Shown here: one piece after another, positions 14,951 through 49,509 of the stretch | Layout of the letters: the number at the start of each line of letters is the position of its first letter | Position numbering within the stretch: position 1 is the first letter of the stretch | Assembly (NCBI GenBank): GCA_043814965.1 | Contig: JBDRJN010000014.1 | Span: 3,084 to 67,083, forward strand | Source of the DNA: Candidatus Omnitrophota bacterium | GTDB taxonomy: Bacteria > Omnitrophota > Gorgyraeia > Gorgyraeales > Gorgyraeaceae | Direction of reading: 5' to 3' | DNA: 64,000 nt | Notes under the pieces: generated by a model | Told to the model about the DNA's origin: nothing | Database searches by the model: none | What the model saw: the letters and a program-made list of their open reading frames with translations, nothing else | Made by a program: the position numbers and the translations under genes

Positions 14951-14953
14951 ATA

Positions 14954-15736: not shown

Positions 15737-16558
15737 ATGGTTAAAGTAATAAATGTAAATAAAATAAAGATAGGAGACAAAAGATCTTTGGTCTTGTTGG
15801 CGGGGCCTTGTGTTATCGAAGATGAAAGATCTACATTGTACCATGCGAGGGAGATCAAGAAGATCTGTAAGAGGTTAGATGTCCCTTTTATATTTAAGTC
15901 CAGCTATGATAAGGCAAATCGTTCCAGCATGAAGTCTTTCAGGGGGCTGGGTATCGATAAAGGCCTGGAGATCCTGAAAAAAGTAAAAAAAGATCTTTCT
16001 CTTTCTATACTTAGCGATGTGCATGATATAGGAGATATAAAAAAGGTAAAGGACACCCTCGATATTATTCAAATACCTGCTTTTTTATGCAGACAGACTG
16101 ATTTTATAATAGAACTTGCCAAGACGAAAAAGGTAATAAATATAAAGAAAGGCCAATTTTTGGCGCCTTGGGATATCAAAAATATAATAGAGAAGATTGT
16201 AGCCGGGGGAAAAAACAAAAACATCATCATTACAGAGAGAGGCGTTAGTTTTGGCTATAATAATCTTGTGAGCGACATGAGGTCTCTACTCATCATGAGG
16301 GGATTCGGCTACCCTGTTATTTATGATGCGACCCATAGCGTTCAGCTTCCAGGCGGGAGGGGAAAGGACTCTGGAGGTGAAAGGATGTTTGTCGCTGGAT
16401 TGAGCCGTGCAGCAGTCGGTATGGGATGCGACGGCTTGTTTCTGGAAGTACATAAAGATCCCGACAAAGCACTTTGTGACGGGCCCAACATGATAGGCCT
16501 TAAGGAATTAGAGAAAATATTAAAAGATACAAAAAACATAAAGAGGATCGTCTCATGA
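15737..16558 (+). CDS. kdsA: 2-dehydro-3-deoxyphosphooctonate aldolase (Kdo-8-P synthase)
   Basis: LLAGPCVIEDE and the DAHP/KDO8P synthase fold motifs are present. Length is 273 aa. Confidence 0.9.
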   Translation: MVKVINVNKIKIGDKRSLVLLAGPCVIEDERSTLYHAREIKKICKRLDVPFIFKSSYDKANRSSMKSFRGLGIDKGLEILKKVKKDLSLSILSDVHDIGDIKKVKDTLDIIQIPAFLCRQTDFIIELAKTKKVINIKKGQFLAPWDIKNIIEKIVAGGKNKNIIITERGVSFGYNNLVSDMRSLLIMRGFGYPVIYDATHSVQLPGGRGKDSGGERMFVAGLSRAAVGMGCDGLFLEVHKDPDKALCDGPNMIGLKELEKILKDTKNIKRIVS

Positions 16559-17514: not shown

Positions 17515-18026
17515 TAGAAGACAGGGCCAGGAAGATAAAACTATTGGTGCTGGATGTAGACGGTGTTTTGACAGACGGACGTATAATATATGATAACTTT
17601 GGGAATGAGATAAAATGCTTTAATGTATTGGACGGGTTTGGAATAAAGCTTTTAAAAGATGCTGGCATAAAACCAGCCATTATTACTGCAAAAAAGACAA
17701 AGATCGTCAAGCGCAGGGCAAAAGACCTAGGTATAGAGCATGTATATTATGGATTTGATAAACTTTCTCTCTATCAGTCTCTTATAAAGAGACTGAATAT
17801 TAAAGATGAAGAGGTATGTTTCATGGGGGACGACCTTTTCGATCTAGCAGTACTGAAAAAAGTTGGTTTTTCAGCATGTCCGCCAAATGCAGTAGAAGAA
17901 GTAAAGGAGACAGTTCATTATATTACGGAAAAAGAAGGCGGAAAAGGTGCTGTAAGAGAGCTTATTGAAGTTATTCTGAAGTCCAGGGATGAGTGGGGTA
18001 GTGTGGTCTCGAGCTATTCTATATAA
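17511..18026 (+). CDS. kdsC: Kdo-8-phosphate phosphatase (HAD-IIIA)
   Basis: LLVLDVDGVLTDGRIIYDNFGNE..KCFNVLDG matches the HAD motifs of KdsC. Confidence 0.85.
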   Translation: MIEDRARKIKLLVLDVDGVLTDGRIIYDNFGNEIKCFNVLDGFGIKLLKDAGIKPAIITAKKTKIVKRRAKDLGIEHVYYGFDKLSLYQSLIKRLNIKDEEVCFMGDDLFDLAVLKKVGFSACPPNAVEEVKETVHYITEKEGGKGAVRELIEVILKSRDEWGSVVSSYSI

Positions 18027-18036
18027 AAAGGCGTTC

Positions 18037-18064
18037 TTGACTACACAATATTATGATATATACT
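18037..18064 (+). promoter_or_regulatory. putative sigma70-type promoter for the response-regulator/kinase genes (TTGACT-16-TATACT)
   Basis: TTGACT at 18037-42, a 16-nt spacer, then TATACT at 18059-64. An AGGAGG RBS lies 6 nt before the ATG at 18103. Confidence 0.4.
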
Positions 18065-18102
18065 TTATATACGTAAGATAATATATATTCAGGAGGTGCG
18101 GT

Positions 18103-18474
18103 ATGGATAGAAAAGTAGTTCTAGGGGTAGATGATAACGATGATATCTTAAAGATGTTACAGATAAGGACTGAAGCGGAGGGCTATGAATTTATTCCTGC
18201 CCGCGACGGGGAGGATATGCTCAATCTTTTAAATAATGGCAAGAAGCCCGATATCATAATTTTAGATATCATGCTTCCCAAAATGGATGGGTACAGCGCC
18301 CTTAGAGAGATGCGGAAAGAGGACGCCTTTAAGGACATCCCTGTAATAGTACTTACTGCAAAAAAGAAGGAAGAAGTTGGAAGCTTGTTTGCTTTGGAAG
18401 ATATAGCTTGTTTTATGGAAAAACCTTTTAGATTTGATGAGTTATTTAAAAAGATAAAAGATATTGTAGGATAA
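18103..18474 (+). CDS. single-domain response regulator (CheY-like receiver only)
   Basis: 123 aa with the acidic pocket DD..D (VDDNDD, IILDIMLP), a conserved T (LTAKK) and a K. No output domain. An AGGAGG RBS is present. Confidence 0.8.
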   Translation: MDRKVVLGVDDNDDILKMLQIRTEAEGYEFIPARDGEDMLNLLNNGKKPDIIILDIMLPKMDGYSALREMRKEDAFKDIPVIVLTAKKKEEVGSLFALEDIACFMEKPFRFDELFKKIKDIVG

Positions 18475-18513
18475 ATTTTTTTCTATACTTTATTATATTT
18501 TAAGGAGGCAGTA

Positions 18514-18888
18514 ATGCTTGAAACCAAGAAGATCATGATAGTTGATGATGAAGAGGATATACGTAGATTGCTCAAGATAAGGCTAGAACGAGAAGGCTTT
18601 GAGCTTGTTATCGCTGAAGACGGAGAGATAGGCCTGAGATTGGCTGAGGCTGAAAAACCCGACTTGATCGTGCTTGATATCGTAATGCCCAATATGGACG
18701 GATATACATGTCTTAAAGAACTTAGAAAGCTCCCTACGACAAAAGACATCCCTGTTATTATGTTCAGCGGTAAAGAAGAAGATAAGGTAAGAGACTTGTT
18801 TGCATTCCAAAAGATAAGCGCATATATTGAAAAACCATTTGACCTAGAGGATTTGATCAATAAGATAAAAGAAATACTCAAGGTGTAG
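18514..18888 (+). CDS. single-domain response regulator (CheY-like receiver only)
   Basis: 124 aa with IMIVDDEED, IVLDIVMPNMDG and FSGKEE. It is a second receiver paralogue with an AGGAGG RBS. Confidence 0.8.
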   Translation: MLETKKIMIVDDEEDIRRLLKIRLEREGFELVIAEDGEIGLRLAEAEKPDLIVLDIVMPNMDGYTCLKELRKLPTTKDIPVIMFSGKEEDKVRDLFAFQKISAYIEKPFDLEDLINKIKEILKV

Positions 18889-18889
18889 T

Positions 18890-20917
18890 TTGAAATATCC
18901 CAGGTCTTTCAATATCACTACTAAATTTATACTATGGTTTTTAGTCATCGCGCTAGTTCCTCTCATCATAGCTATATCCATAAGCTATAATAGTTCCCAG
19001 GCCGCATTAAGAAAAGAAGTTGCTAATAGCTTGGTAGCAATCGCAAACAATAAGGCCTATCAGATAGAATCGTTTCTCATCGAAAAGAAAAAGAATGTAA
19101 GTTTGTTATCTTATGACTCGGATATTATCGAGATAATGGGGGATTTCAATGATGTATTAGATAGATCCGGCTTTGATTCAGAGGAGTATATAGCCATAGA
19201 AGAAGAGCATAGGTCTTTGCTTACTTATTATAATAAGACCTTAGGTTATGAAGATATCTTTCTTGTAAGGCCAAATGGCGATGTAGCCTTTTCAGTGAAT
19301 AAAACAAAAGATGTTGTCTCGCTTTATGAGATCGCTTTATCTAAAAAACCTTCTGAACTTGTAAACATATTCATAGAGTCTAAAAAATCTTTAAAGATAG
19401 AGACGTCGGATTTCGAATATAATGATATTACAAATAGAGCAGCCTTATTTATAGGCTCCCCGTTGTTCAGGGGCGCTGAGTTTATCGGAGTGCTTATACT
19501 GAAGATGGACAATAGCGATGTATCTAGGTTTGTCCTGGATTATAAGGGCCTTGGTAAAACAGCCGAGACTATAGTAGCCTCCAAAATAAATAATGAGATA
19601 GTCTGTATTACTCCCCTAAGATTCGATAAAGATGCAGCATTTAAGAGAAAACTCCCTTTAGGTTCTAGAAATATGCATTATCTGCAGGATGCTGTCGAGG
19701 GAAAAGACGGCATAGGTATATTTACTGACTATAGAAATAACGATGCCCTCACAGTATGGAGACATCTCCCGTCTTTTCGCTGGGGTATGGCTGTAAAAAT
19801 GGATAGCGTAGAAGTCTTTAAATCAGCAAAGGACTTGAGAGACAGACTGATAGAAATAAGCCTTATTCTTTTGCTAGTGGTCATGATAATGGCTGTTGTC
19901 ATTGCAAGGTCTGTATCCAGCCCGATAAAGAACCTTACTAGGGTTTCAAAGGTCATCAGCAGGGGCAATCTTCTTGCGAGGGCAAAGGTCAATACAAAAG
20001 ACGAATTAGGTGAACTGGCAGAGTCTTTTAACTATATGACTGACAAGCTTATTGAGGCCAAAGCAAAAGTAGAAGAAAAAAACAATCAACTGCAAGAACA
20101 GAAGATATTACTTGAAAAAGTAAACAAAGAACTGGACAGTTTTGTCTATACTGTTTCACATGATCTTAAGACCCCGCTCAATGGCATATACGGTTTTACA
20201 GACCTACTTGAAAAAGATTATTTTGATAAAGTAGGTAAAAATGGACAGGAATACCTCGGGAGGATACGCCATGGCGTGGAAAGGATGCGGAGGCTCATAG
20301 AGGACCTTTTGGCTCTTTCCAGGATCAGTAGGATAAAGAATCCATTTGAAGATGTTGACGTGAATCAATTATTAGAATCTGTTATGGATAGGATAGAATT
20401 CGAGATAAAAAAGAACAATGTGGAGCTTTCTGTTGCAAAAGGCCTGCCTATATTGCATTGTGACAGGATTAAAATGGAAGAGGTGTTTCTTAATCTGATG
20501 ACCAACGCGATAAAATTTTCCTCGAAAGACAGGTCCAATGTACCAAAGATAGAGATAGGATATCATGATAGGCAGGATGCTTATGAATTTTATATAAAAG
20601 ATAATGGCATAGGGATAGAAAAGAAATATCATAAAGAAATATTTGACATCTTTAGAAGGCTTCACCATCAGAAAGAATACGAGGGGACAGGAGCTGGGTT
20701 AAGTATAGTCAAAAGGGTAATAGATGACCATAATGGCAGGATATGGGTAGAAAGTGAGCTGGGACAAGGCACGACATTTTGCTTTACTATTCCTAAAAAA
20801 GGCATGAAGCGAAAAAAACTCGGAGAGATATTGTTGGCAGAAGGAACTATTTCCAAAGAAGACCTCAAAAAAGCCCTAGAAAAACAGGGCATAGATGATA
20901 TTAATGTCTCTAGTTAA
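18890..20917 (+). CDS. sensor histidine kinase (TM - periplasmic Cache-like sensor - TM - HAMP - HisKA - HATPase_c)
   Basis: TTG start 1 nt after the receiver gene's stop. Two TM segments flank a roughly 280-aa extracytoplasmic domain. A HAMP-like linker is followed by an H-box (VSHDLKTPLNGI), an N-box (LMTNAIKFS) and a G-box (GTGAGLSIVKRVIDDHNG). Confidence 0.8.
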   Translation: MKYPRSFNITTKFILWFLVIALVPLIIAISISYNSSQAALRKEVANSLVAIANNKAYQIESFLIEKKKNVSLLSYDSDIIEIMGDFNDVLDRSGFDSEEYIAIEEEHRSLLTYYNKTLGYEDIFLVRPNGDVAFSVNKTKDVVSLYEIALSKKPSELVNIFIESKKSLKIETSDFEYNDITNRAALFIGSPLFRGAEFIGVLILKMDNSDVSRFVLDYKGLGKTAETIVASKINNEIVCITPLRFDKDAAFKRKLPLGSRNMHYLQDAVEGKDGIGIFTDYRNNDALTVWRHLPSFRWGMAVKMDSVEVFKSAKDLRDRLIEISLILLLVVMIMAVVIARSVSSPIKNLTRVSKVISRGNLLARAKVNTKDELGELAESFNYMTDKLIEAKAKVEEKNNQLQEQKILLEKVNKELDSFVYTVSHDLKTPLNGIYGFTDLLEKDYFDKVGKNGQEYLGRIRHGVERMRRLIEDLLALSRISRIKNPFEDVDVNQLLESVMDRIEFEIKKNNVELSVAKGLPILHCDRIKMEEVFLNLMTNAIKFSSKDRSNVPKIEIGYHDRQDAYEFYIKDNGIGIEKKYHKEIFDIFRRLHHQKEYEGTGAGLSIVKRVIDDHNGRIWVESELGQGTTFCFTIPKKGMKRKKLGEILLAEGTISKEDLKKALEKQGIDDINVSS

Positions 20918-20949
20918 TTACAACCATAGTAAGGCGTTCCTATAAACTC

Positions 20950-21195
20950 AAGGTGAAATTTTTCCCTCGCAACATAGTATCATAAGAGTGTTACTCGGGA
21001 TCGTCTTTTAAGGAAGTATTTTTATATAGGGCTAAAAAAACTCGTCCGTCAATATGTGTGGCGGACTCAAACAGTAGTAGGGGGGCCTTAAGGCTCCCCT
21101 ACCGTAGAAAAGGTTTAGGCGAGAGCGAAAAAGAAAATAGAGTAACCCTGCACCGTACTGGTGCAGGGCACGCTGGGAAAATTTTACGTCCTCGA
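20950..21195 (+). repeat. structured repeat element copy A (about 245 nt; conserved hairpin core AAAAACTCGTCCGTCAATATGTGTGGCGGACTC; two further perfect stem-loops)
   Basis: Shares a 40-nt near-identical core, a similar 5' segment (GAAANTTTTCCC..ATAGT) and similar core spacing with the element at 38010-38263. It contains hairpins at 21041-21068, 21076-21103 and 21150-21172 and is bounded by an imperfect IR (GAAATTTTTCCC / GGGAAAATTTT). The overlapping ORF 21032..21223 is judged spurious. Confidence 0.5.
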
Positions 21196-21301
21196 AAGTA
21201 GTACACACAAAGCATGCTAGCAATAATATAGCTTAAACCAAGCTTAAACCGCCACAATTATATTGACTACTATACGCTATATATGCTAGTATATTTTCTC
21301 T

Positions 21302-22195
21302 ATGGCGAAGAAGAGGGCGAAAAGGCTTATTCTATTCTGGCTCTTTAGCTTTCTGAGTATCGTAATTCGGATCTTACCCCTAAGGTTTGCACTTTTTGTA
21401 GGAAAATTTTTAGGAAAGATATCTTTTTATCTACTCAAGAAAGAAAGAGATACAGCCTTAAAAAATCTTGATATTGCGTATGGCGATTCCAAGTCTTTAG
21501 AAGAGAAAAATGCCTTGATCAGGAAGGTATTCGAGAATCTCGGAAAGAACCTGATAGAGATAGTCTCTCTTCCAAAGTTCAATGCTTCTAACATAGATAA
21601 GTATATATCTTGCAGGGGGATCGAAGTTATAGAAGATTTCTTAAATAAAGGAAAAGGCGGAATAGCCCTTAGCGCTCATTTTGGGAACTGGGAACTGATG
21701 GCGCACTATTTTGGGATAAAAGGCTATTCGGTAAATGTAGTTGCCCGCCGTGTAAGGATGGAAGAATTTGAAAGGTTCCTTGTCAGTATAAGAAAAAGGA
21801 ACAATGTAAATGTACTATATCGAGATGGTTCTATAAAGGATATACTAGCCCTTCTCAAGAAAAATCAGTTTATAGGGATAATGCCTGATCAGGATATGGA
21901 TAGCGTATCGGGCGTATTTGTGGATTTTTTTGGGAAAAAGGCCTTTACGCCTAATGGACCGGCAATACTGCATTCTTTGATAAAAAGCCCTATTATACCA
22001 TGTTTCATGATAAGAAAAGGTTTTGGCCATGAAATATGCATAGATAGAGAATTAAGATTGGCTAGTACTGATAACAAAGAGAAGGATATCCTGGATAACA
22101 CCGCCAAATATACGAAAATCATAGAAAGTTATATCAGGAATAATCCAGAGCAATGGGTCTGGTTCCATGACAGGTGGAAGACCAGGCCGGATTAG
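21302..22195 (+). CDS. lipid A biosynthesis acyltransferase (LpxL/LpxM/HtrB family), second paralogue
   Basis: IALSAHFGNWELMAHYFG and IMPDQD match the LpxL family. Length is 297 aa. Confidence 0.75.
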   Translation: MAKKRAKRLILFWLFSFLSIVIRILPLRFALFVGKFLGKISFYLLKKERDTALKNLDIAYGDSKSLEEKNALIRKVFENLGKNLIEIVSLPKFNASNIDKYISCRGIEVIEDFLNKGKGGIALSAHFGNWELMAHYFGIKGYSVNVVARRVRMEEFERFLVSIRKRNNVNVLYRDGSIKDILALLKKNQFIGIMPDQDMDSVSGVFVDFFGKKAFTPNGPAILHSLIKSPIIPCFMIRKGFGHEICIDRELRLASTDNKEKDILDNTAKYTKIIESYIRNNPEQWVWFHDRWKTRPD

Positions 22196-22199
22196 CAAT

Positions 22200-23012
22200 A
22201 TGGAATCAAAAGGTTTAAAAAGGTTGAAGTTAAAAACAGGTATAGTCATATTTTTGACAGCATATTTTAGTTCAGCCTGCTTAGCCTTGACAGATAGCAA
22301 GGCAGGACAATCTCTGGATGGTTTTTCTCTTGTGCAGTATGAGGATAATGTAAAAAGAAAATGGCAGTTAGAAGGAAAAGAGGCCAATATCGAGGAAGAG
22401 CTGGCCAGGATAGATGAAGTATCAGCTATTGTATTTGGGAAAAAGGCCGCATTTAAATTAAAAGCCAAGAAAGGGTATTTCGACTTAAAAGAGCAGAAAG
22501 GGACGCTGCAGGAAGACGTAGTGATAAAGAGTACGGATGGTACAAGGGTAAGAGCGGACTATTTGGATTGGTATGGAAAAACCGATATTATATCAAGCGA
22601 TGGCCTGGTCAGTATACATAGAAGGGATTTTGATATCATAGGAAAAGGCGTATTCTACGACCTTAATCAGAAGATAGCCAGGTTCAAGGAAGATGTAGCG
22701 GTGAATAGTATTATGCCGGATGTGGATGTGGTAGTCACATGCGATGGCCCTTTCGAGATAGATTATGATAAAGGCTGGGCTACTTTTTACAATAATGTAG
22801 CCATCAAGGACAAAAGAGGAAATGTCTTTTCAAACAGGGTCGATTTGTATCTAGGAGAGGACAAAAAGGAATTGGAAAAGATAGTAGCCAGAGAAAATGT
22901 AGAGATTTCGGATAGGGATAACATTATAACAACTGATGAGGCGATATACATAGTAAAAGAAGAAAAACTGATCCTTCCGAATAAGCCGAGATTGGTGATG
23001 AAAAATGAGTAA
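22200..23012 (+). CDS. LptC/LptA-family (OstA-like) LPS transport periplasmic protein, membrane-anchored
   Basis: N-terminal TM anchor followed by two OstA-like beta-jellyroll-type segments. It sits immediately upstream of, and overlaps, lptB. The 271-aa length suggests an LptC-LptA-like tandem arrangement. Confidence 0.55.
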
Positions 23013-23748
23013 TTATGTGAACAGTGAACACCTGTTGGAAATAAAGGGCCTCGCTAAGTCCTATGAAGATAAAAGAGTGGTGGACGGCGTGGACATGAGT
23101 GTTAAACGGGGTGAGATAGTCGGCCTCTTGGGGCCTAATGGCGCTGGCAAGACCACGACATTTTATATGGTAGTTGGGATGCTTAAACCCGATAAAGGCA
23201 GGATCATATTCGATAATAAAGATATCACTAACTTGGCTATGTATAAAAGGGCCAGGAATGGCATAGGATATCTCTCTCAAGAGCCTTCTATATTCAGGAG
23301 ATTGACAGTAGAAGAAAATATCATGGCTATACTTGAAACCCTAGACCTTCCCAGGAGCATTAGAAAGAAAAGATTGGAAGAACTGTTGGATGAGCTTAGC
23401 ATATCTAATGTTGCAAAGAAAAAGGCATATCTGCTTTCAGGAGGAGAGAGAAGGAGGCTTGAGATAACAAGGGCGCTTGTTACCAATCCGCTTTTTATAC
23501 TTTTGGATGAGCCTTTTAGCGGAATAGACCCTATTGCAGTAGCTGATGCTCAGGAGATAATAGCTGATCTAAAAAGGAAGGGCCTGGGAATATTACTTAC
23601 AGATCACAATGTTAGAGAAACACTTGAAATAACCGACCGTTCGTATATAATGGCGGGAGGGCGTATCCTGATCTCAGGTACTGCAAATGAACTGATAAAC
23701 GACCAAAAGGCACGCGAGATATATCTCGGTGAAAAATTTAGGATGTAG
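23005..23748 (+). CDS. lptB: LPS export ABC transporter ATP-binding protein
   Basis: Walker A ([14 protein letters not shown]), ABC signature ([15 protein letters not shown]) and Walker B ([11 protein letters not shown]) are present. It follows an lptC/A-like gene. Confidence 0.85.
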
Positions 23749-41286: not shown

Positions 41287-44200
41287 ATGACAGTATGTTC
41301 TTTAAGGAAAACGTGTTCTGTCTTTTTAATAGTGATCTTTACTATTACTAATATTGCCTATGGAGCTCCCAGCGAAAGGTCCTTTTTTAAGAATAAAAAA
41401 GTAGATTATAAGAAATTAAGCACCCAAAGCCAAGAACAGCTCGAGAAGAAAAAGGCTGTTTTAAGCGGTGAAGATGTAAAAAAGACAAGTAAAAAACCTT
41501 CCAAGGCCAAGCAAATAGATTTTAGCGCCCATCTAAGCGATATATCAGAGATAAATATCCCCGGCGAATTAGGAAGAGTCGTTGAGGTATATAAAGCCCC
41601 TGATTCTGAAAAAGACAAGAACAGGCTTGTAGTACATATCCAGGACCTCCATGCCAATCCTGAGGCTACACTTAACCTGGCAAGTATATTGGAGATATTG
41701 GTAAAAGATTATAACCTGGATCTAATATGTTCTGAAGGCGCGGAAGGAGAGGTTGATACATCAAGCGTTTCCAGTTTTCCTGACGCTGAGATCAGGAAAA
41801 AGACAGCAAAGCTATTTGTAAATTCAGGAGAACTTACAGGAGAAGAATACCTTTCTATTACCAAATACCCGGATCTTCCTATATGGGGAATAGAAGATAA
41901 GGATATATATTTCAATAATATAGTCCAGTTCAATAAGATAATGCAGTTTTCCAACTCCAGTTATGTCTTTATCTCGCAGTGCACAAATGCGCTGGATGCG
42001 TTGAAGCCTTACATATACTCAAAAGAGATCCTGGAATTGGACCAGAAAGAATCCGAATACGATAATGGTAATCTGGAGACATCTTTGTACCTGGATTATG
42101 TCTTGCCTTATGTGGAGCAGTTCAATATATCGAAAGACAAATATAAAAATATCTCTCTTTTAACAGAGACGATGGCTAAAGAAAAGACTATTGACCAGCA
42201 AAAGGTGATGAAAGAATCGCAAGACCTTTTAATGGACCTTCAGAATATGCTTTCAAGAAAAGGCGGAGAATCTGACCTGGAAGCCCTGATAGCCAAGGCA
42301 GAGCTTTTTAAGAATAAGAAAATATCGCCATTCTCTTTCTATAATTACCTGAAGGGCCTGGCTCAGAAGCACCTGAAGGAGAAATCAGAGAGCTATACGT
42401 ATCTAAATGAATTTATAGATTATCTTACCAAGGTAAACGATCTTGATGCTTCAAAGCTTTTTACTGAGATCGGGGAATTAAGTTATGAGATAAAAGATAA
42501 TCTTGCCAAAAAAGACGAAGAAAAGCTTCTTACAAAGGTTATACGTAATGCAAAGTTCTTGACAGGGTTTTTTAGCCTCAAGATATCCAATGAAGAGCTT
42601 GACTACTACCTGGAAGACAAACCTTCTTTTGAAGTATCATTCTTTAAGGAATTCCTAGAGCCCAACCTTAAAAAATATAATATTACGAGTTACGTGGATT
42701 ATAACCCTGAATTTATAGACAATAAGTTCAGCGAAATAGAGGAGTTTTACGGTACTGTAAAATCGCGAGATTTTTCCATGTTCAATAATTCCATGTCTCA
42801 GATCGAAAGTAGAAGAGCAAAAGTCGCAGCCCTTATATCAGGAGGTTTTCATACCAGGGGCATAACAAAACTATTAAGAGAAAAAGGTTATTCTTATGTA
42901 GTTATATCCCCTTACTCTTCGCAGGAGACAGATGAAGAGAACTACCACTTCCTTCTCTCAGGACAGCGTAAACCAATAGAAGAGCTTATAAGGCAGCTAG
43001 ACGTAGAAGAGACAGTCGATAGATTATCTTCCAATGATAATCTGCGCAGTTTAATGCGTTTCGGGAATAATACAGTAGAGGCCTGGAATAATTCTGTAGT
43101 ACCTCAAAAGATAGCTGAGATATTGGGATTAAAAGTAGAAGACGTACAATTAGAGCCTTTATTGAATGATGCTGCAATTGTGCTGGGATTAAGCAGCGGC
43201 GCAGAAGCATGGCATAGTTCTCCGGTAGGTATGGAAGTAAGGTCTCCAAGAAAAGGAGAGATAATATTAAAGTTCGATGATAATAGTTATGTAAAGATGA
43301 CGAGCCTTGGAGAGGTAAAACGTGTAGATAAAAAAGAATTCAGAGGAAAGACCACTCTTAGCATAACTCCTAATGTAGACGGAACTATAAATGTAGCTGA
43401 AACTGATAGAGGCAAAGGTTCGCCCCTGGAGTTGTTAAAATTCATGGTGGATGGGACATATTACGAAGGGGAGTCCATATCTAAAGCAGATTTAGTAGCT
43501 GGAAGGTCTTTTTCTGTATCTACTATAGACCTAGAGATAAAAAGCCTTACAGAACTCGGACTATTAAAAAAGAATAGTGATGGGACATATGAACTTACGA
43601 GCTATATAGGCCTAGAGCAATATAATAATATTAAAGCAGTTACAGGTCCTATAGTACAAGTTAATGGTAAAAACGAGGGATTAAATCGTTATAGGATAGA
43701 CGACCTGTCAGAAGATAAAAAGAATGAATTTAAAAATGCCATAGACTTTGCTGTAACTTACCAAAAGACCCCATCAAACTTTCTAAAAAAATTAATCCTT
43801 GCAGGAGGCAAGCTTGATATCAAAGGTACCGGTGAATCTGGCGAGGCCCTTGCGCTTTATTATGCGGATCTAGCTGAGACTTTTGCAGGACCTACTGGAA
43901 TAGAATCTGTGGCATTGAGTAAAAATATTACATTTGCTGAGGCAGGGCTTATAGCAGATATTGTAGATCATGCCAGCGCGCTTAATATTACAGGAACCAG
44001 AAACAGCATAAGTCAAGCTTTTGAAACAGCAAAAAATCTTTCTGTATCACGAGAGGAGCCTAGATACAGTATAAAAGAGACGTCACTAAGTTCAGATTTT
44101 GAAATAGCAAGAAATCTTCCTGATATGTATAGAGATCTTTCCCCGGAAAAGATCAAAGACAAGATCATAATAGTACGAGGCAATTTAAACGCGCCTTTGG

Positions 44201-47200
44201 ATAAATCTGGAGAAGTAAGTGATCCTACCAGGCCGGATAATATTGATAAGGCTGTTACTTATATAATTGAAAATGGAGGTACACCTGTTGTCTATGGCCA
44301 TCTCATGAGGCGTGAAAATAATATATCTATGGAGCCAGTAGCTAGTTATTTATCAGATAAATACGGACAAGATGATGTAGTTTTTCATAAGGGTAGCATC
44401 ACTAAAGACGGATTAACGATCAGTCGAAATAATATTATAAGGGGTAAGATCAATATCCTTGAAAATATAAGGCTCGTAGACAAAGAAAATGAAGCAAAGC
44501 TTGGCAGGCAGATCGCATCTCTTTCTGAAGACAAGATATTAGTAGCTGACGCGCTTGGGGATGAAGGATCAAGCGATGTCGTACATGTCTATAATGCCGC
44601 TAGCGAGGTATATCAGGGGCCGGAAGAAAGAAGAGAATTTTCTGAATTGGAAGATACACTGAAAAATGGCGTTGATGTAGTATTGTTCGGTGGATTTAAA
44701 ATAGAAAAACTGGATCTTTTATTAAGGCTGGTCGATGCCCTGAGAGATGGCGGTGTTGTCTTATTGGGGTCAGGACCTTCAGACCACATCAGGAACGATC
44801 CTGAAATAAAAGAGCAATTAAAAGGCCTTATTGATGCAGGAAAGATCATCTTAGCTGAAGGGGATAAGTATTATTTTAATAAAGTAATGGGAAGGGACAT
44901 GCCAGGAGATATCTCTTCTCAGGATCTAGAGAGATACTCCAATATCCTTGATAACCTTAAACCAGGCCAGAGGGTCTTATTTAATGGGACAATGGGTTTT
45001 ATGGAGAAAAAGGATAGTAATGAAAATATAGAAATATCCTATAGAGAAGGTACTAAAAAGATACTCGAGAAAGTATCTGAGATCAGTGAAAAAGGCGTAA
45101 AAGGCCTTGGAGTCGGAGGAGATGGTACAAAATGGGCCAGGCATTATAGATTGAATAAGAAGGAAAATATAATGCTGTCTACAGGAGGTGGAGTTTCCCT
45201 AAGCCTTATTACGCATGAACCTTTAAAAGGTACTAAAGCGCTTTCCAATAGAGCGCAAACTCAGAAAATTGCAAAGCGAGATTTTTCATCTGAGTATGGC
45301 TATGTAGCTGAGGATTTAGTCGGTCCGCTAGCTAGCATGGCAAAAACTACCAGCCAGGATAATACACCTTACGCAAAATACGCATCAGATAGAGATAATG
45401 TAAGCCCCTCTACCATAAAGACACAACCTGCTATTGGCCGTCCGGAAGCGGTAGCGTATGAGGCAGATTCTCCTTATAATATAATAACGCAGTTACAAGA
45501 AGCTAAAAAAACTGACTATGCCCGAAACTTACAGGATGTAATGAGTGTCGCATTAAGGGATTATCCGGAATTGAGAGATATTTCTTTTAAGATAAAAATA
45601 ATCAGCAACAGCCAGGAAAACCTTGCTGAATATATGCCAGGCCAGGAAATGATAACAATAGATGAGTCTATACTCGCTAATTTTGAACTTATGCGCCAGG
45701 AGCTTATCTCGGAAGAATTCCGCCATATGCTATATAATAATCTTGTACGGTCAGTAAGAAATAAAGATGTAACGCCTAGGCAGAGACTTGTAGAAGAGGC
45801 TGCCACAGATATGCAGAAATTTAGGGACCTTCTTAGGATACAGACAGCCGAGGGAAGAGCTGCTCTTATCGGGCCTTTGATCTATTCTACTGATAAATTC
45901 AATTTCTACAGGCTGCTTTTGAGAACTATACCGCAGGGAAAAGAAAGGAACGATGTCCTGGATATTCTTCTTCGAGACCATTTTATATCAGAAGATTTTA
46001 GAAATAATTATAGTGAGCGTAAAGGGATAAGCGGAGATGAGGAAAGGCAGGTAGAGGCCTTAAATACTCATTATAAAAACAATTCTGTATTTTCTCCGGA
46101 ATTACAGCGCTTGATGATTAAACCTATAACGCTTGAAGAAGTGAAAGCTTATGAAACCGATTTCAATAATATCAGGCTAGAGTATAGAGCGCAGAAGATG
46201 GCTGAAAAGCCGGCATCAGCTGAAGATACATGGACAGAGGTTACTAAGAAGTTTACAGATAAGGCAGAACAATATGAACGTGCAATGATACTTACTGAGT
46301 TAGATAAGATCGCTAGCGGCGACTATGTGGCTGAGGATCTAATCGGTCCGCTAGCTATTAACCAGCTTCCTATAGATGTAAGTGATGATAGAGATACTGT
46401 AGGAATTCTTTTGTCAGCAGAAGGGTTACTTGGAAAAGGTTTTATTAGCGAGAGAAGAATAGATAATAACAATGATCTCGACAGGACCAATCCTTCTAAG
46501 CCAGCTTACTATATTGACCGCATGGAGAATGCATTAGAAGAGCACAGTACATATGATGAGATAATACTCGCAGTTATAGATGACAGGATGAAAACACAGG
46601 TCTGGAAAGAGATTAAAACTGCATTCCAGGGTACTGAATACGAGTTTCTTTTACGTAAGATTAGAGTAGTAAGCAAGATCAAACCTGATACAGGCAATCA
46701 TGATGCAGTAATTGAACTGCTTGATTCAGCTGTAGGTGTAGGAAAAAAGGAAGATAATGATAAAGGTCGTTTCCTTATTATACAGACTGCCGGAAGCGGA
46801 TCTAGGAACTATCCTTTAACAGCAACTGCTAAAGGCAATAAGGGCCTAGTACAGGTACCGGGAGATATTGATGGTAAGGCAGTGTTCAATAATATTATTC
46901 AGACTATCTGCCAATCACATCAGCTCCTTGATGATACCCCATCTGGGACAGTTACTGTGCTGGGATGTGACCAGCTTTGGGCTGTAGCTAATTCAGTAAA
47001 AGGTAGTGGTGCAGGCTTAGATATTCTTGGCAATAGTGTTAGCATGGATAATGTTATTAAAGAACTCGTAGATCTAGGGATTATAAATGGAGTAGAAAAC
47101 AGCAAAATTATTTCTGATCTAACTGAAGAAGAGATTGCTTTAAGAATAGACTATCTTTTTGACCCTAAGATCAGAACTGAAGAAGTAGGTCTAAAATGGA

Positions 47201-49509
47201 GAGGAAAGACAGTAGCAGCCCTAGCACCTAGTCTATATGAGATGTCTGAATTAGGTCATTTATGGTCAGGGGAAGGAACATACCTGGATAGCATGATAGA
47301 AAAACCCAATAACTGGGATATGTTAAAACCTATTCTAGAAAAAGGTTCGACAAATTTTAATTGGTGGAACCATCGTTATAGTATAAGCGGAGCAAAGAAA
47401 GCAGTTGAAATATATAAAGATCATATAGGAGAAGGCCTTGATATCTCCAATGATGTACTGCAGGTTGTAGGTAAAGAATATGAAGATTGGCGCGCTTTAA
47501 GGGTAATGCAGATTAAAAAATTAGCTAGTATTGAAGACGGCAGGAAAGTTAGATTACCCGACGAAGAAGAAACAAGACTGAAAAATATATATATGCTTGC
47601 TTCAGACTTTCATAAGGCATTGGGCAGCTCTATAGGTTATATTGACTTAGGGAAGGATTCAGTGTTTGCAGATACAGGAAAGAATACTGTTTTATTGGAG
47701 TCATATCTTAAAATCTTCAATAATACAAAAGAAGGAGAATTGCTGCGAAGACTTTGTAATATTAAAGAAAGGAATTTTCTTGCGCCCAATGTGCTTAGTT
47801 TTGGTTCACCCAAGTTAAACGAAGCTTTTAAAGCAGGCAAGATAAAAGTAGCAGAGAACGCAAAGGTAATATTTATTGACTCTGATAATGTGCTTGAGGC
47901 TGATATAAAAGCTGGAGGGAGCCTTATAATAGATTCTTGCATAGAAAAGCTTAATGTCAAAGGCAGCGGCCTTGTCTGTTATGTTCGCGAAGAAGGTGTA
48001 GTAGATTTAGAAGAGGGCAAAATTGTAGCTGATGTGGTTAATAAAAATAGTGAACTTGAGCGCATAGTAGAAGACCTAGCTGGAGATCCAAAGGCCAAAG
48101 GTGCCTCGCATCATAGATTTTCACCTGTTATTGAAACGCTAGGAGCTATTAAAGTGGCAAAGATATACGATGATGCCAAGAGATCATTTGAGGCTAGTGT
48201 TAGAGGTAAACAAGCGACAGGCCAGTCTCTCCTTGGCGGTATGGCAGAGGGGATAGGCGTAGATGAATATTCTAGTATAGAGACTAGCAGCCTTAGTGAA
48301 GCTGAAAAAGAGGCGATAACTAGAGAAGCTCTTTCGAATGCAATAGATAATTTTACAAACCTTGAATTATTCAATAAGGTCTTAAATAATTCTACCTCAA
48401 CATATATTACAAGAAACGGCCAGATAACTACTTCTGATGCTGGAGACCTTGGTGCAGCTTTCACGGATTCTGGATTATTGGACCTAGCCATAGAGGCTGG
48501 TATGGAGTTTCCTGTCAATGGTGTTGTAATATCCAAAAATGCCGGGTTAGAGAATGCCCCTATAGAGATAATAAATTCTGTAGCTAGGCATAGTGCTAAA
48601 AAAGATATATTCTTGAGCGCGCTACAGGATATTAAATCAGGCACATTAACTACAGATAATCTGACTCCAGTCGAACTTGAATTCTTATCAGCCGTAAAAG
48701 ACTTTACGGAACTTTCTATCTTTACAGGTTTATTTAGTGAAAATGGGCCTGATTTTATAAAGCTTGATCCAAATGGCTCGGTAAATACATCCGACCTTAT
48801 AGAGCTGAATCTAGAGTTTAGCGATTTAGGTATAATGGAATACGCCAATGATATTGGTCTAGAATTGGATGGAGTAGTGATTTCTGGAGATACTACTACT
48901 GCAGCAGCTGACATGAAGCAGGAATTCGGCCTTAGTTATCAAGATATTGTCTCAACTGACCTAGATGAAGTTGGTGGAGGAGAGGCATTAGGTATTGGCG
49001 GAGAAGAATATAATACTATAGAGACCAGTGGCTTTACTGAAGAAGATCCTATGATTAGTGCTGCTAAGGAAGAACTCAAAAAAGTGACAGAAGCAGTTTT
49101 AAGGCCAGCGCCAAGTTTAGAAACTAGGATGTCCGAACTTTATGATATTTCCTCTAAGGATAAGGTTGACAGTATGAGCCAGATCGATGCTGTATTTGCA
49201 GACAAAGTTATTGGTAATGAGGTAGAGTTCGAGGCATGGCTGCGTGATAAGCGTAACGGAGGCCATGCAGTAGTTATCATAGCAACCGAAGACGAATACG
49301 CTGATGTTGAAAAATATAAAGATATTGCTTACATAAAAGTCTTGGGTAGAGATATAAAAGGCCCAGGTTTTATTAAGAAATTTGAAGAACTAAGAGTATT
49401 GTGCGAATTTAAACAATTTGCGAGTTTTAACTTTGGTGATGTATTAGATGTCTCATCAAATGTTGATGAATACAAGGAAGCATTCGAAGCAGTAGCTGAC
49501 GACATGTAG
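41287..49509 (+). CDS. giant secreted multidomain protein (2740 aa): signal peptide; TraB/GumN-like region; phosphoglycerate-kinase-like domain; sugar-nucleotidyltransferase-like + LbH-like region; acidic repeat-bearing C-terminus
   Basis: Uninterrupted 8223-nt ORF with its own promoter, RBS and terminator. Signal peptide MTVCSLRKTCSVFLIVIFTITNIAYG/AP. Region nt approx 41570-42970 is TraB/GumN-like (LVVHIQDLH..DLICSEG; SGGFHTRGITKLLREKGYSYV). Region nt approx 44160-45230 is PGK-like (VRGNLNAPLD..DPTRPD; GHLMRRE; ILENIRL..KENE; VLFGGFKIEKLDLLLRLVDAL; VLFNGTMGFME; GVGGDGT; STGGGVSLSL). Region nt approx 46770-48040 is NTP-transferase-like (IIQTAGSGSRNYPLTATAKGNKGLVQV; VTVLGCDQLW) with hexapeptide-like repeats (VIFIDSDNVLEADIKAGGSLIIDSCIEKLNVKGSGLV). 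Confidence 0.8.
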   Translation: MTVCSLRKTCSVFLIVIFTITNIAYGAPSERSFFKNKKVDYKKLSTQSQEQLEKKKAVLSGEDVKKTSKKPSKAKQIDFSAHLSDISEINIPGELGRVVEVYKAPDSEKDKNRLVVHIQDLHANPEATLNLASILEILVKDYNLDLICSEGAEGEVDTSSVSSFPDAEIRKKTAKLFVNSGELTGEEYLSITKYPDLPIWGIEDKDIYFNNIVQFNKIMQFSNSSYVFISQCTNALDALKPYIYSKEILELDQKESEYDNGNLETSLYLDYVLPYVEQFNISKDKYKNISLLTETMAKEKTIDQQKVMKESQDLLMDLQNMLSRKGGESDLEALIAKAELFKNKKISPFSFYNYLKGLAQKHLKEKSESYTYLNEFIDYLTKVNDLDASKLFTEIGELSYEIKDNLAKKDEEKLLTKVIRNAKFLTGFFSLKISNEELDYYLEDKPSFEVSFFKEFLEPNLKKYNITSYVDYNPEFIDNKFSEIEEFYGTVKSRDFSMFNNSMSQIESRRAKVAALISGGFHTRGITKLLREKGYSYVVISPYSSQETDEENYHFLLSGQRKPIEELIRQLDVEETVDRLSSNDNLRSLMRFGNNTVEAWNNSVVPQKIAEILGLKVEDVQLEPLLNDAAIVLGLSSGAEAWHSSPVGMEVRSPRKGEIILKFDDNSYVKMTSLGEVKRVDKKEFRGKTTLSITPNVDGTINVAETDRGKGSPLELLKFMVDGTYYEGESISKADLVAGRSFSVSTIDLEIKSLTELGLLKKNSDGTYELTSYIGLEQYNNIKAVTGPIVQVNGKNEGLNRYRIDDLSEDKKNEFKNAIDFAVTYQKTPSNFLKKLILAGGKLDIKGTGESGEALALYYADLAETFAGPTGIESVALSKNITFAEAGLIADIVDHASALNITGTRNSISQAFETAKNLSVSREEPRYSIKETSLSSDFEIARNLPDMYRDLSPEKIKDKIIIVRGNLNAPLDKSGEVSDPTRPDNIDKAVTYIIENGGTPVVYGHLMRRENNISMEPVASYLSDKYGQDDVVFHKGSITKDGLTISRNNIIRGKINILENIRLVDKENEAKLGRQIASLSEDKILVADALGDEGSSDVVHVYNAASEVYQGPEERREFSELEDTLKNGVDVVLFGGFKIEKLDLLLRLVDALRDGGVVLLGSGPSDHIRNDPEIKEQLKGLIDAGKIILAEGDKYYFNKVMGRDMPGDISSQDLERYSNILDNLKPGQRVLFNGTMGFMEKKDSNENIEISYREGTKKILEKVSEISEKGVKGLGVGGDGTKWARHYRLNKKENIMLSTGGGVSLSLITHEPLKGTKALSNRAQTQKIAKRDFSSEYGYVAEDLVGPLASMAKTTSQDNTPYAKYASDRDNVSPSTIKTQPAIGRPEAVAYEADSPYNIITQLQEAKKTDYARNLQDVMSVALRDYPELRDISFKIKIISNSQENLAEYMPGQEMITIDESILANFELMRQELISEEFRHMLYNNLVRSVRNKDVTPRQRLVEEAATDMQKFRDLLRIQTAEGRAALIGPLIYSTDKFNFYRLLLRTIPQGKERNDVLDILLRDHFISEDFRNNYSERKGISGDEERQVEALNTHYKNNSVFSPELQRLMIKPITLEEVKAYETDFNNIRLEYRAQKMAEKPASAEDTWTEVTKKFTDKAEQYERAMILTELDKIASGDYVAEDLIGPLAINQLPIDVSDDRDTVGILLSAEGLLGKGFISERRIDNNNDLDRTNPSKPAYYIDRMENALEEHSTYDEIILAVIDDRMKTQVWKEIKTAFQGTEYEFLLRKIRVVSKIKPDTGNHDAVIELLDSAVGVGKKEDNDKGRFLIIQTAGSGSRNYPLTATAKGNKGLVQVPGDIDGKAVFNNIIQTICQSHQLLDDTPSGTVTVLGCDQLWAVANSVKGSGAGLDILGNSVSMDNVIKELVDLGIINGVENSKIISDLTEEEIALRIDYLFDPKIRTEEVGLKWRGKTVAALAPSLYEMSELGHLWSGEGTYLDSMIEKPNNWDMLKPILEKGSTNFNWWNHRYSISGAKKAVEIYKDHIGEGLDISNDVLQVVGKEYEDWRALRVMQIKKLASIEDGRKVRLPDEEETRLKNIYMLASDFHKALGSSIGYIDLGKDSVFADTGKNTVLLESYLKIFNNTKEGELLRRLCNIKERNFLAPNVLSFGSPKLNEAFKAGKIKVAENAKVIFIDSDNVLEADIKAGGSLIIDSCIEKLNVKGSGLVCYVREEGVVDLEEGKIVADVVNKNSELERIVEDLAGDPKAKGASHHRFSPVIETLGAIKVAKIYDDAKRSFEASVRGKQATGQSLLGGMAEGIGVDEYSSIETSSLSEAEKEAITREALSNAIDNFTNLELFNKVLNNSTSTYITRNGQITTSDAGDLGAAFTDSGLLDLAIEAGMEFPVNGVVISKNAGLENAPIEIINSVARHSAKKDIFLSALQDIKSGTLTTDNLTPVELEFLSAVKDFTELSIFTGLFSENGPDFIKLDPNGSVNTSDLIELNLEFSDLGIMEYANDIGLELDGVVISGDTTTAAADMKQEFGLSYQDIVSTDLDEVGGGEALGIGGEEYNTIETSGFTEEDPMISAAKEELKKVTEAVLRPAPSLETRMSELYDISSKDKVDSMSQIDAVFADKVIGNEVEFEAWLRDKRNGGHAVVIIATEDEYADVEKYKDIAYIKVLGRDIKGPGFIKKFEELRVLCEFKQFASFNFGDVLDVSSNVDEYKEAFEAVADDM

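What the first reader, a model, noticed from the sequence alone, without database searches (positions are those of the whole stretch)
46770..48040. Sugar nucleotidyltransferase-like and hexapeptide-like region inside the giant protein
IIQTAGSGSRNYPLTATAKGNKGLVQV matches the (L)xxGxGTRxxPLTxxxPKxxxxV N-terminal signature of RmlA, GlmU and GDP-mannose pyrophosphorylases. VTVLGCDQLW matches the second motif. About 350 aa later, VIFIDSDNVLEADIKAGGSLIIDSCIEKLNVKGSGLVCYV has the periodicity of a left-handed beta-helix. The Thr/Arg of GTR is changed (GSR).
Basis: partly seen in the sequence, partly recalled or inferred. Interest (0 to 1): 0.6.

Follow-up and report, generated by a model that had tools for sequence, protein, structure and literature searches.

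The report
Divergent sugar-nucleotide-making domain in giant protein
A 550-residue stretch of a 2,740-residue exported protein from an Omnitrophota bacterium looks like an enzyme domain that makes nucleotide-activated sugars, but it belongs to a rare sequence family that Pfam and NCBIfam do not recognise.

Summary
The nucleotidyltransferase reading holds, but only methods more sensitive than a Pfam scan show it.

- **Standard scans:** Pfam, NCBIfam and PDB sequence searches find nothing in this stretch.
- **Family size:** a full HMMER scan of 1.84 billion representative proteins finds only 21 relatives, the named ones mostly from Omnitrophota.
- **Conserved residues:** in a 13-sequence alignment the invariant residues are those that sugar-1-phosphate nucleotidyltransferases use: AGxGxR (R1840), GNK (K1852), D1895 and EKP (K2006). 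The DxG Asp (D2129) is conserved in at least 90%.
- **Structure:** the AlphaFold2 model (pLDDT 88) matches the GDP-fucose pyrophosphorylase half of FKP best (Foldseek E 5e-8, near full length). ADP-glucose and GDP-mannose pyrophosphorylases follow.
- **Partners:** relatives are fused or adjacent to phosphohexomutases, starch synthase and GT4 glycosyltransferases.
- **Beta-helix:** the model and fold matches support it. There is no six-residue periodicity and no Hexapep match.

My reading is a probably active NDP-hexose pyrophosphorylase of unknown specificity. It sits next to a PGK domain in a protein with a signal peptide, and that location is unexplained. Enzyme-carrying giant Omnitrophota proteins are already published. 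Interest is moderate.

The parts
41287..49509 (+). Giant ORF of 2,740 aa that contains the finding. It is identical to a public protein named 'MAG: phosphoglycerate kinase [Candidatus Omnitrophota bacterium]'.
   Evidence: P0001, 100% identity, contig of 69,361 bp
41287..41364 (+). N-terminal Sec-type signal peptide (aa 1-26, MTVCSLRK-hydrophobic-IAYG|AP). It is the only hydrophobic segment in the protein.
   Evidence: Hydrophobicity scan. The same n-region/h-region/AxA|AP layout is seen in most of the 89 head-family proteins. Judged by eye; no signal-peptide predictor was run.
41509..43041 (+). Head module (aa about 75-585), which defines a family of 88 other giant proteins. Invariant HIQDxH, EG, RD and GGFH motifs.
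   Evidence: AF2 model pLDDT 89.6. Only weak fold matches, to erythromycin esterase EreC (E 0.016).
44149..45252 (+). Full-length phosphoglycerate kinase domain (aa 955 to about 1322).
   Evidence: Pfam PF00162 E 1e-27. Aligns to PDB PGK 3zlb residues 11-397 (E 1e-13).
45529..46215 (+). Accessory module (aa 1415-1643) that also precedes the nucleotidyltransferase-like domain in relatives P0091, P0092 and P0100.
46537..47796 (+). Nucleotidyltransferase (alpha/beta) part of the domain, aa 1751 to about 2170. It includes an extra N-terminal strand-helix unit (DEIILAV, aa 1757-1763).
46777..46845 (+). G-loop and following Lys: IIQTAGSGSRNYP ... GNKG. A1835, G1836, R1840, P1843 and K1852 are invariant in the family.
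   Evidence: Equivalent to Arg80/Lys89 of FKP (PMC11982464).
46963..46980 (+). GCDQLW, with invariant D1895 as the predicted Mg2+ ligand. It lies 55 residues after the G-loop Arg; in FKP, Arg80 to Asp136 is 56.
47047..47244 (+). Helical insertion of about 66 aa (aa 1921-1986), absent from the short-form subfamily (P0106, P0107, P0108).
   Evidence: Alignment columns 255-330. Helices H197-236 of the model.
47293..47310 (+). MIEKPN: the EKP motif. K2006 is invariant and is the predicted sugar-1-phosphate-binding, catalytic Lys.
   Evidence: Lys187 of FKP.
47665..47685 (+). FADTGKN: the DxG motif. D2129 is conserved in at least 90% of sequences and G2131 is invariant. D2129 is the second predicted metal/phosphate ligand.
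47842..48075 (+). Predicted beta-helix region (aa 2186-2263).
   Evidence: Eight short strands in the AF2 model, block pLDDT 90-97 over most of the region. It lies within the near-full-length Foldseek alignments to FKP-NTD and AGPase. No lag-6 periodicity and no Hexapep hit.
48106..48213 (+). C-terminal helical cap of the domain (aa 2274-2309).
   Evidence: Helices H524-559 in the model. FKP-NTD also ends in a helical cap subdomain.
49135..49500 (+). C-terminal module of about 120 aa (aa 2617-2738), shared with at least 10 other head-family giant proteins. Function unknown.
   Evidence: No Pfam or PDB match.

Best explanation
**What it is.** Residues about 1751-2300 of the giant protein (window 46537-48186) form one folded unit. 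It is a sugar-1-phosphate nucleotidyltransferase (pyrophosphorylase) domain followed by a beta-helix and a helical cap. This is the two-part architecture of the GDP-fucose pyrophosphorylase half of FKP, of ADP-glucose pyrophosphorylase and of GDP-mannose pyrophosphorylase. It belongs to a rare, divergent sequence family, mostly from Omnitrophota, that no Pfam or NCBIfam model covers.

**Inferred mechanism.**
- The G-loop (AGSGSR, R1840) and K1852 hold the NTP phosphates.
- D1895 and D2129 bind Mg2+.
- K2006 of the EKP motif positions the phosphate of a hexose-1-phosphate for attack on the alpha-phosphate of the NTP. The products are an NDP-hexose and pyrophosphate.

**Likely substrate.** From its fusion and neighbour partners, the sugar is most likely glucose-1-P or mannose-1-P, and the product feeds glycosyltransferases. 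Neither the nucleotide nor the sugar can be read from the sequence.

**Shown versus inferred.** Shown here: the motifs, the family, the fold similarity and the domain partners. Inferred: that the domain is catalytic, what its substrates are, and where in or outside the cell it works.
For: - **Family.** A full HMMER scan finds 21 relatives (best E 8e-84), and the homology spans about 550 residues.
- **Conserved residues.** The invariant columns of the 13-sequence alignment are A1835, G1836, R1840, P1843, K1852, D1895, G1990, K2006 and G2131. D2129 and E2005 are conserved in at least 90%. These correspond to Arg80, Lys89, Asp136, Lys187 and His272 of FKP, and the Arg-to-Asp spacing matches (55 against 56) (PMC11982464).
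- **Sequence links.** The family profile hits only nucleotidyltransferases in the PDB, at three collinear motifs. Some members give weak PF00483 and PF07959 hits.
- **Fold.** AF2 model with pLDDT 88 and pTM 0.88. Foldseek finds 78 hits at E<=1e-3; the best is 9iis FKP-NTD (E 5.4e-8, 547 columns), followed by AGPases, GDP-Man pyrophosphorylases and a UGPase.
- **Partners.** The same domain sits upstream of PGM/PMM domains in head-family giants P0047, P0049 and P0053. A stand-alone copy, P0108, lies between two PGM/PMM genes. It is fused to a GT4 glycosyltransferase in P0093 and to starch synthase GT5+GT1 in L007.
- **Same slot.** In P0055 and P0010 a canonical PF00483 or UDPGP domain occupies the same position upstream of PGM.
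Against: - No curated HMM (Pfam, NCBIfam) reaches significance on the window copy.
- hhalign of the family profile against one canonical PF00483 domain aligns only the G-loop (E 0.055).
- In this particular protein the partner is PGK, not a mutase or a glycosyltransferase.
- The protein starts with a signal peptide and has no other membrane segment. That would place an NTP-dependent enzyme outside the cytoplasm, where NTPs are not expected.
- No activity has been measured for any member of the family.
Confidence: 0.78

Rival explanations
1. The domain has the nucleotidyltransferase plus beta-helix fold but is not a catalyst. It would act as a ligand-binding, regulatory or scaffolding module, as in the eIF2B epsilon/gamma subunits or the non-catalytic large subunits of plant AGPase. 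On an exported giant protein it might bind sugar phosphates, nucleotide sugars or a partner surface.
For: - The signal peptide with no further membrane segment predicts an extracytoplasmic location without NTP supply.
- The sequence is very divergent from every characterised enzyme.
- FKP-NTD itself has a second, non-catalytic nucleotide site next to its beta-helix, and translation initiation factor subunits are among its structural relatives.
Against: - All five catalytic or ligand positions are invariant or nearly invariant across 13 sequences that share only 18-36% identity. Pseudoenzymes normally lose them.
- The repeated association with mutases and glycosyltransferases fits a metabolic step.
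Confidence: 0.15
2. It is a GT-A-type glycosyltransferase or another Rossmann-like nucleotide-binding enzyme rather than a sugar-1-phosphate nucleotidyltransferase.
For: - From established knowledge, nucleotidyltransferases and GT-A glycosyltransferases share a related alpha/beta fold.
Against: - All 50 listed Foldseek hits are nucleotidyltransferases.
- The G-loop GxGxR, EKP and DxG motifs are specific to that class.
- The D-S-D lies in the beta-helix, not in the catalytic domain, and is not conserved.
Confidence: 0.04
3. The resemblance is a chance motif match in a low-information linker of a giant protein.
For: No Pfam, NCBIfam or PDB sequence hit on the window copy.
Against: - 21 homologues with E down to 8e-84.
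- Five ordered motifs are conserved.
- The model is confident and the fold matches are significant.
Confidence: 0.01

Closest known systems
GDP-fucose pyrophosphorylase domain of FKP (Bacteroides fragilis; PDB 9iis) and the FPGT family (Pfam PF07959 Fucose_pyrophosphorylase)
   Same: - Best structural match: E 5.4e-8, 547 aligned columns, TM 0.48-0.49.
- Same order of parts: an alpha/beta nucleotidyltransferase domain, then a short beta-helix, then a helical cap.
- An extra strand-helix unit precedes the G-loop.
- The G-loop Arg, the following Lys, the Mg2+ Asp (spacing 55 against 56) and the catalytic Lys are kept.
- One family member gives a weak PF07959 hit (E 0.005).
   Different: - Only 12% identity in the structural alignment, and no PF07959 hit on the window copy.
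- Asp (DxG) stands where FKP has His272, and EKP where FKP has Gln186-Lys187.
- A helical insertion of about 66 aa is present.
- No fucokinase partner. The partners point to hexose-1-P from phosphohexomutases rather than fucose salvage.
ADP-glucose pyrophosphorylase (GlgC; PDB 5l6s, 5mni, 1yp2, 5w5t)
   Same: - Nucleotidyltransferase domain followed by a C-terminal left-handed beta-helix.
- The family profile matches its G-loop, EKP and DxGT motifs in order.
- Foldseek E about 1e-6.
- A relative (L007) is fused to a starch/glycogen synthase domain, the enzyme that uses GlgC's product.
   Different: - TM only 0.25-0.4, and sequence matches are sub-threshold (E 0.07-0.14).
- Nothing here indicates allosteric regulation or a tetramer.
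- The domain is embedded in a giant multi-domain protein.
GDP-mannose pyrophosphorylase / ManC (PDB 7x8k, 2cu2) and RmlA-type PF00483 enzymes
   Same: - G-loop GxG(T/S)RxxPLT, the following Lys, the GD motif, EKP and DxG.
- Foldseek E 1e-5 to 1e-4.
- A canonical PF00483 domain occupies the same slot upstream of PGM in the paralogous giant P0055.
   Different: - PF00483 does not reach its gathering score on any member (best E 9e-4).
- hhalign against one canonical domain aligns only the G-loop.
- In L008 the new domain and a canonical PF00483+ManC beta-helix domain coexist in one protein, so they are probably not redundant.
Giant Omnitrophota proteins ('Archaeovorins', West-Roberts et al. 2023 bioRxiv 10.1101/2023.11.21.568195; 'sugar-metabolism module', 2026 preprint 10.64898/2026.06.07.730766)
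   Same: - Omnitrophota proteins of several thousand residues carrying central-carbon and sugar-metabolism enzyme domains (TPI, PGI, FBPase, PGM/PMM, FBA, starch synthase).
- They are predicted to be exported or membrane-associated, and those papers already flag the same topology puzzle.
   Different: - At 2,740 aa the window protein is small next to the largest examples those papers describe (30,000 aa and more).
- A term search of those papers found no mention of a nucleotidyltransferase or of PGK inside a giant protein.
- I did not search them for the shared head module described here.

Membership tests
Sugar-1-phosphate nucleotidyltransferase superfamily (RmlA/GlgC/ManC/FKP-NTD type) | N-terminal glycine-rich loop GxGxR followed about 10 residues later by a Lys | tested here: met
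   AGSGSR (R1840) and GNKG (K1852). A, G, R, P and K are invariant in 13 sequences. The motif is unique in the window.
Sugar-1-phosphate nucleotidyltransferase superfamily (RmlA/GlgC/ManC/FKP-NTD type) | Alpha/beta nucleotidyltransferase fold | tested here: met
   AF2 model pLDDT 88. 78 Foldseek PDB hits at E<=1e-3, and all 50 listed are of this class. This is a predicted structure, not an experimental one.
Sugar-1-phosphate nucleotidyltransferase superfamily (RmlA/GlgC/ManC/FKP-NTD type) | Metal-binding Asp after the central strand, a (E/Q)K motif Lys for the sugar phosphate, and a DxG(T) motif | tested here: met
   D1895 and K2006 are invariant, D2129 is conserved in at least 90% and G2131 is invariant. 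The profile aligns EKP and DxGT to those of AGPase. Roles are taken from FKP.
Sugar-1-phosphate nucleotidyltransferase superfamily (RmlA/GlgC/ManC/FKP-NTD type) | Pyrophosphorylase activity (NTP + sugar-1-P gives NDP-sugar + PPi) | not testable with these tools
   Needs an enzyme assay.
Pfam PF00483 NTP_transferase | HMM score above the gathering threshold (21.2 bits) | tested here: not met
   No hit on the window copy at E<=10. Two relatives score E 9e-4 or weaker, and the scores seen were 11.8-14 bits.
Pfam PF07959 Fucose_pyrophosphorylase (FKP/FPGT) | HMM match | tested here: not met
   One of 13 relatives hits at E 0.005. The window copy has none.
Pfam PF07959 Fucose_pyrophosphorylase (FKP/FPGT) | Architecture: nucleotidyltransferase domain, short left-handed beta-helix, helical cap | tested here: met
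   Order of secondary-structure elements in the model. Near-full-length Foldseek alignment to 9iis. Description of FKP-NTD in PMC11982464.
Pfam PF07959 Fucose_pyrophosphorylase (FKP/FPGT) | GTP and fucose-1-P specificity; association with a fucokinase | tested here: inconclusive
   No fucokinase (GHMP kinase) domain was found by Pfam in this protein or in any scanned relative. Specificity itself cannot be tested in silico.
Hexapeptide-repeat left-handed beta-helix (Pfam PF00132) | Tandem [LIV]-[GAED]-x2-[STAV]-x hexapeptides detectable by HMM or by six-residue periodicity | tested here: not met
   No Hexapep hit at E<=10. Lag-6 autocorrelation z about 0. A beta-helix-like strand stack is predicted only at the structural level.
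Omnitrophota head-module giant protein family (defined here) | N-terminal signal peptide followed by a module of about 500 aa with HIQDxH, EG, RD and GGFH motifs | tested here: met
   88 other proteins share aa about 83-570 at 20-69% identity, always at the N-terminus.

The most novel reading that the evidence does not exclude
The giant protein really is exported, as its Sec-type signal peptide and lack of any other membrane segment predict. It would then work outside the Omnitrophota cytoplasm, either in the periplasm or on or inside a host or prey cell. In that reading the PGK domain regenerates ATP/NTP locally from 1,3-bisphosphoglycerate, and the new pyrophosphorylase domain uses that NTP to activate hexose-1-phosphate. 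The head-module family, whose members each carry a different set of central-metabolism enzymes, would then be a tool kit of secreted 'metabolic effectors' that run or divert sugar metabolism outside the producer cell.
Probability: 0.1. Interest if true: 0.85.

Novelty: new variant of a known kind. Interest (0 to 1): 0.45.

Why it matters
- **Annotation gap.** The domain shows that Omnitrophota giant proteins hold real enzyme domains that standard annotation misses. The public record calls this protein only 'phosphoglycerate kinase'.
- **A missing pathway step.** The new family supplies the step between the phosphohexomutase domains and the starch-synthase or glycosyltransferase domains already reported in these proteins. 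That points to a hexose-phosphate to NDP-hexose to glycan route encoded on single polypeptides or adjacent genes.
- **An open question.** These proteins carry signal peptides, which sharpens an unresolved problem: where do NTP-dependent enzymes on exported giant proteins work, and are the giants cut into separate enzymes?
- **Practical use.** A profile of this family (alignment A1) would let the domain be annotated in metagenomes.

Tried and rejected
- **Curated HMMs and PDB sequences.** Pfam and NCBIfam on the whole protein and on sub-segments up to E 10 gave only PGK. phmmer of the region against PDB sequences gave nothing.
- **Word-indexed homologue search.** With the region alone and with alignment A1 it returned nothing, not even the query's own database entry. 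I treat both as tool false negatives, not as evidence of absence.
- **Exact look-up.** The giant protein is 'not on record' in the gene-position index, although the identical protein exists in the protein collection.
- **Profile against a canonical domain.** hhalign of A1 against single canonical PF00483 and UDPGP domains from paralogous giants aligned only the G-loop and was not significant.
- **Genome scan.** A1 was too divergent to derive search patterns. The closer 4-sequence alignment A3 worked.
- **Gene neighbourhoods.** Those of stand-alone members P0099, P0106 and P0097 were uninformative.
- **Periodicity.** The hexapeptide test was negative.
- **Linker motif.** I asked whether the 11-residue repeat YVAEDL[VI]GPLA marks domain boundaries across the family. 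It occurs only in this protein, so I dropped it as a general linker or cleavage signal.
- **Embedded protease.** I asked whether the module upstream of the domain is an HExxH protease. The motif is present in P0100 but is S-E-x-x-R here, so it is not an active metalloprotease in this protein.
- **Other modules.** PDB searches with the head module and the C-terminal module gave nothing significant.
Full report
**Observation.** The flagged interval 46770-48040 lies inside one uninterrupted ORF, window 41287-49509 on the + strand, of 2,740 aa. Base composition is uniform across the gene and its neighbours at about 38-40% GC. The neighbours are housekeeping genes on the same strand: dxr, rseP, ispG and proS upstream, and rimP, nusA, infB, trpS, scpA and scpB downstream. 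An LPS-core and Kdo gene cluster lies further upstream. The identical protein is in public data as 'MAG: phosphoglycerate kinase [Candidatus Omnitrophota bacterium]'.

**Standard methods see nothing.** Pfam and NCBIfam on the whole protein report only a phosphoglycerate kinase domain at aa 955-1151. That domain aligns over its full length to solved PGKs. Sub-segments of the flagged region give no NTP_transferase or Hexapep hit even at E<=10. phmmer against all PDB sequences gives nothing.

**A rare family with the right invariant residues.** A full HMMER scan of 1.84 billion representative proteins with aa 1751-2330 found only 21 relatives. The best scores E 8e-84 at 37% identity, and the homology extends over about 550 residues. 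So the unit is larger than the flagged interval and begins roughly 80 residues upstream of the G-loop. Pfam finds no domain in that part of any relative.

In a 13-sequence alignment (A1, 18-36% identity to the window copy) the invariant columns are A1835, G1836, R1840, P1843, K1852, D1895, G1990, K2006 and G2131. E2005 and D2129 are conserved in at least 90%. These are the glycine-rich loop, the following Lys, the GD-motif Asp, the EKP Lys and the DxG motif of sugar-1-phosphate nucleotidyltransferases. In FKP the corresponding residues are Arg80, Lys89, Asp136, Lys187 and His272, which bind the GTP phosphates, Mg2+ and the sugar phosphate (PMC11982464). The Arg-to-Asp spacing is 55 residues here and 56 in FKP. 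The G-loop pattern occurs once in the six-frame translation of the window, against 0.035 expected.

**Sequence links to known families are weak but one-directional.** The A1 profile against PDB sequences yields 13 sub-threshold hits (E 0.07-2). Every one is a sugar-1-P nucleotidyltransferase (AGPase, a UGPase, RmlA), and the AGPase alignments show the G-loop, EKP and DxGT motifs in order. Scanning each member against Pfam at a permissive threshold gives PF00483 in two members (best E 9e-4) and PF07959 Fucose_pyrophosphorylase in one (E 0.005). The other listed hits are single, weaker and unrelated. hhalign of A1 against a single canonical PF00483 domain aligned only the G-loop.

**Structure.** AlphaFold2 on A1 gave a confident model with mean pLDDT 88.1 and pTM 0.88. 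It has an alpha/beta domain, a run of eight short strands at aa 2186-2263, and terminal helices. Foldseek against the PDB gave 78 hits at E<=1e-3. The top hit is 9iis, the GDP-fucose pyrophosphorylase part of FKP (E 5.4e-8, TM 0.48-0.49, 547 aligned columns). It is followed by E. coli, Agrobacterium and potato ADP-glucose pyrophosphorylases, Arabidopsis and Thermus GDP-mannose pyrophosphorylases and a cyanobacterial UGPase. All of these combine a nucleotidyltransferase domain with a C-terminal left-handed beta-helix, and FKP-NTD adds a helical cap, as the model does.

**Functional context from partners.**
- The A1 HMM also detects the domain in three paralogous giants that share this protein's head module: P0047 (E 4e-99), P0053 (E 4e-25) and P0049 (E 8e-14). 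All three carry phosphoglucomutase/phosphomannomutase domains.
- In P0055 and P0010 the same slot upstream of PGM is filled by a canonical PF00483 or UDPGP domain.
- A stand-alone 560-aa member, P0108, lies between two PGM/PMM genes and overlaps the start of the second.
- P0093 fuses the domain to a GT4 glycosyltransferase.
- A genome scan found four loci, three of them in named Omnitrophota MAGs. In L007 the domain shares a polypeptide of more than 4,400 aa with a starch-synthase GT5+GT1 unit. In L008 it shares one with a canonical PF00483+ManC beta-helix domain.

Mutases make hexose-1-phosphates, and glycosyltransferases and starch synthase consume NDP-hexoses. The domain fits the step between them. 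In the window protein the recognised partner is PGK, so the pathway logic here is less clear.

**The whole protein.** In order it contains:
1. a Sec-type signal peptide (aa 1-26), the only hydrophobic segment;
2. a head module of about 500 aa (aa 75-585);
3. the PGK domain (aa 955 to about 1322);
4. an accessory module (aa 1415-1643) that also precedes the domain in P0091, P0092 and P0100;
5. the nucleotidyltransferase and beta-helix unit (aa 1751-2300);
6. a C-terminal module of about 120 aa, shared with at least ten relatives.

The head module is shared by 88 other proteins of 1,500-4,700 aa. Most of the named ones are Omnitrophota. Each carries a different set of enzymes, including enolase, PFK, PGI, FBA, FBPase, transaldolase, PGM, UDPGP, GDH and kinases. 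Most begin with a signal peptide ending in AxA|AP. Published work already describes glycolytic and sugar-metabolism domains in giant Omnitrophota proteins and notes the same conflict between predicted export and cytoplasmic-type chemistry. A term search of those papers did not find the nucleotidyltransferase family or a PGK domain inside a giant protein.

**Verdict.**
This is a divergent sugar-1-phosphate nucleotidyltransferase plus beta-helix domain with all catalytic residues intact. It is closest in architecture to FKP-NTD and AGPase, but it meets the score threshold of neither PF07959 nor PF00483.
- I rate fold and homology at about 0.9 and actual pyrophosphorylase activity at about 0.6-0.7. 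Specificity and cellular location are open.
- It is a new sequence variant of a well-known enzyme kind, in a protein class that has already been described. Interest is moderate.

Noticed in passing
window 41509-43041 (aa 75-585 of the giant protein): A head module of about 500 aa defines a family of at least 88 other giant proteins, most of the named ones Omnitrophota. It is always N-terminal. Q119, D120, H122 (HIQDxH), E150 (EG), R494 (RD), G519, G520, H522 (GGFH) and P542 are invariant. The AF2 model (pLDDT 89.6) shows a small alpha/beta core split by a large helical insertion. The best fold matches are weak, to erythromycin esterase EreC and BcR135 (E 0.016-0.06), which hints at the Ere/ChaN/TIKI-type hydrolase superfamily.
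   Followed up: partly
window 41287-41364, and the N-termini of P0002-P0089: Most head-family proteins begin with a Sec-type signal peptide (basic n-region, hydrophobic core, AxA|AP). The window protein has no other hydrophobic segment, so PGK and the nucleotidyltransferase domain are predicted to be extracytoplasmic. This was judged by eye and by hydrophobicity, not with SignalP.
   Followed up: partly
window 45301-45333 and 46324-46356 (aa 1339-1349 and 1680-1690): An 11-residue repeat, YVAEDL[VI]GPLA, occurs twice: just after the PGK domain and just before the nucleotidyltransferase unit. It brackets the accessory module. It was not found in any of the 113 other proteins collected.
   Followed up: yes
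window 45529-46215 (aa 1415-1643): This accessory module is shared with P0091, P0092 and P0100 and always lies upstream of the nucleotidyltransferase-like domain. P0100 has HELGH (an HExxH motif) where this protein has SEEFR, so a metalloprotease-like motif is present in some copies and lost here.
   Followed up: partly
window 49135-49500 (aa 2617-2738): A C-terminal module of about 120 aa is conserved in at least 10 head-family giants and always sits at the extreme C-terminus. It has no Pfam or PDB match. It could be a sorting or docking signal.
   Followed up: partly
window 48111-48914, minus strand: A 267-aa antisense ORF lies wholly inside the giant gene, opposite aa about 2276-2543, a part with almost no homologue support. 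It is probably a shadow ORF of the coding frame. I did not test it.
   Followed up: no
window 6793-23745: An LPS-core and Kdo gene cluster. It holds a GT4 glycosyltransferase, a polysaccharide deacetylase, three GT9 heptosyltransferases, DUF3108, a PfkB kinase, KdsB, KdsA, KdsD-like (SIS+CBS), a KdsC-like HAD, a Cache-HAMP histidine kinase, LpxL-type acyltransferase, LptC and an LptB-like ABC ATPase. The organism is therefore diderm, with an outer membrane.
   Followed up: partly
L008 aa 2001-2427 and 3627-4013; L007 aa 186-688, 2001-2437 and 2786-3023: In other Omnitrophota giants the new domain shares a polypeptide with a canonical PF00483+ManC beta-helix domain (L008), or with starch synthase GT5+GT1 and an ARMT1-like phosphatase (L007). 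Both ORFs run off a 13-kb locus at both ends.
   Followed up: partly
(tool behaviour): The word-indexed protein search returned no hit for the sub-region or for alignment A1, not even the identical database protein P0001. The exact look-up of the giant protein in the gene-position index also failed. Negatives from these tools on this protein are unreliable.
   Followed up: yes
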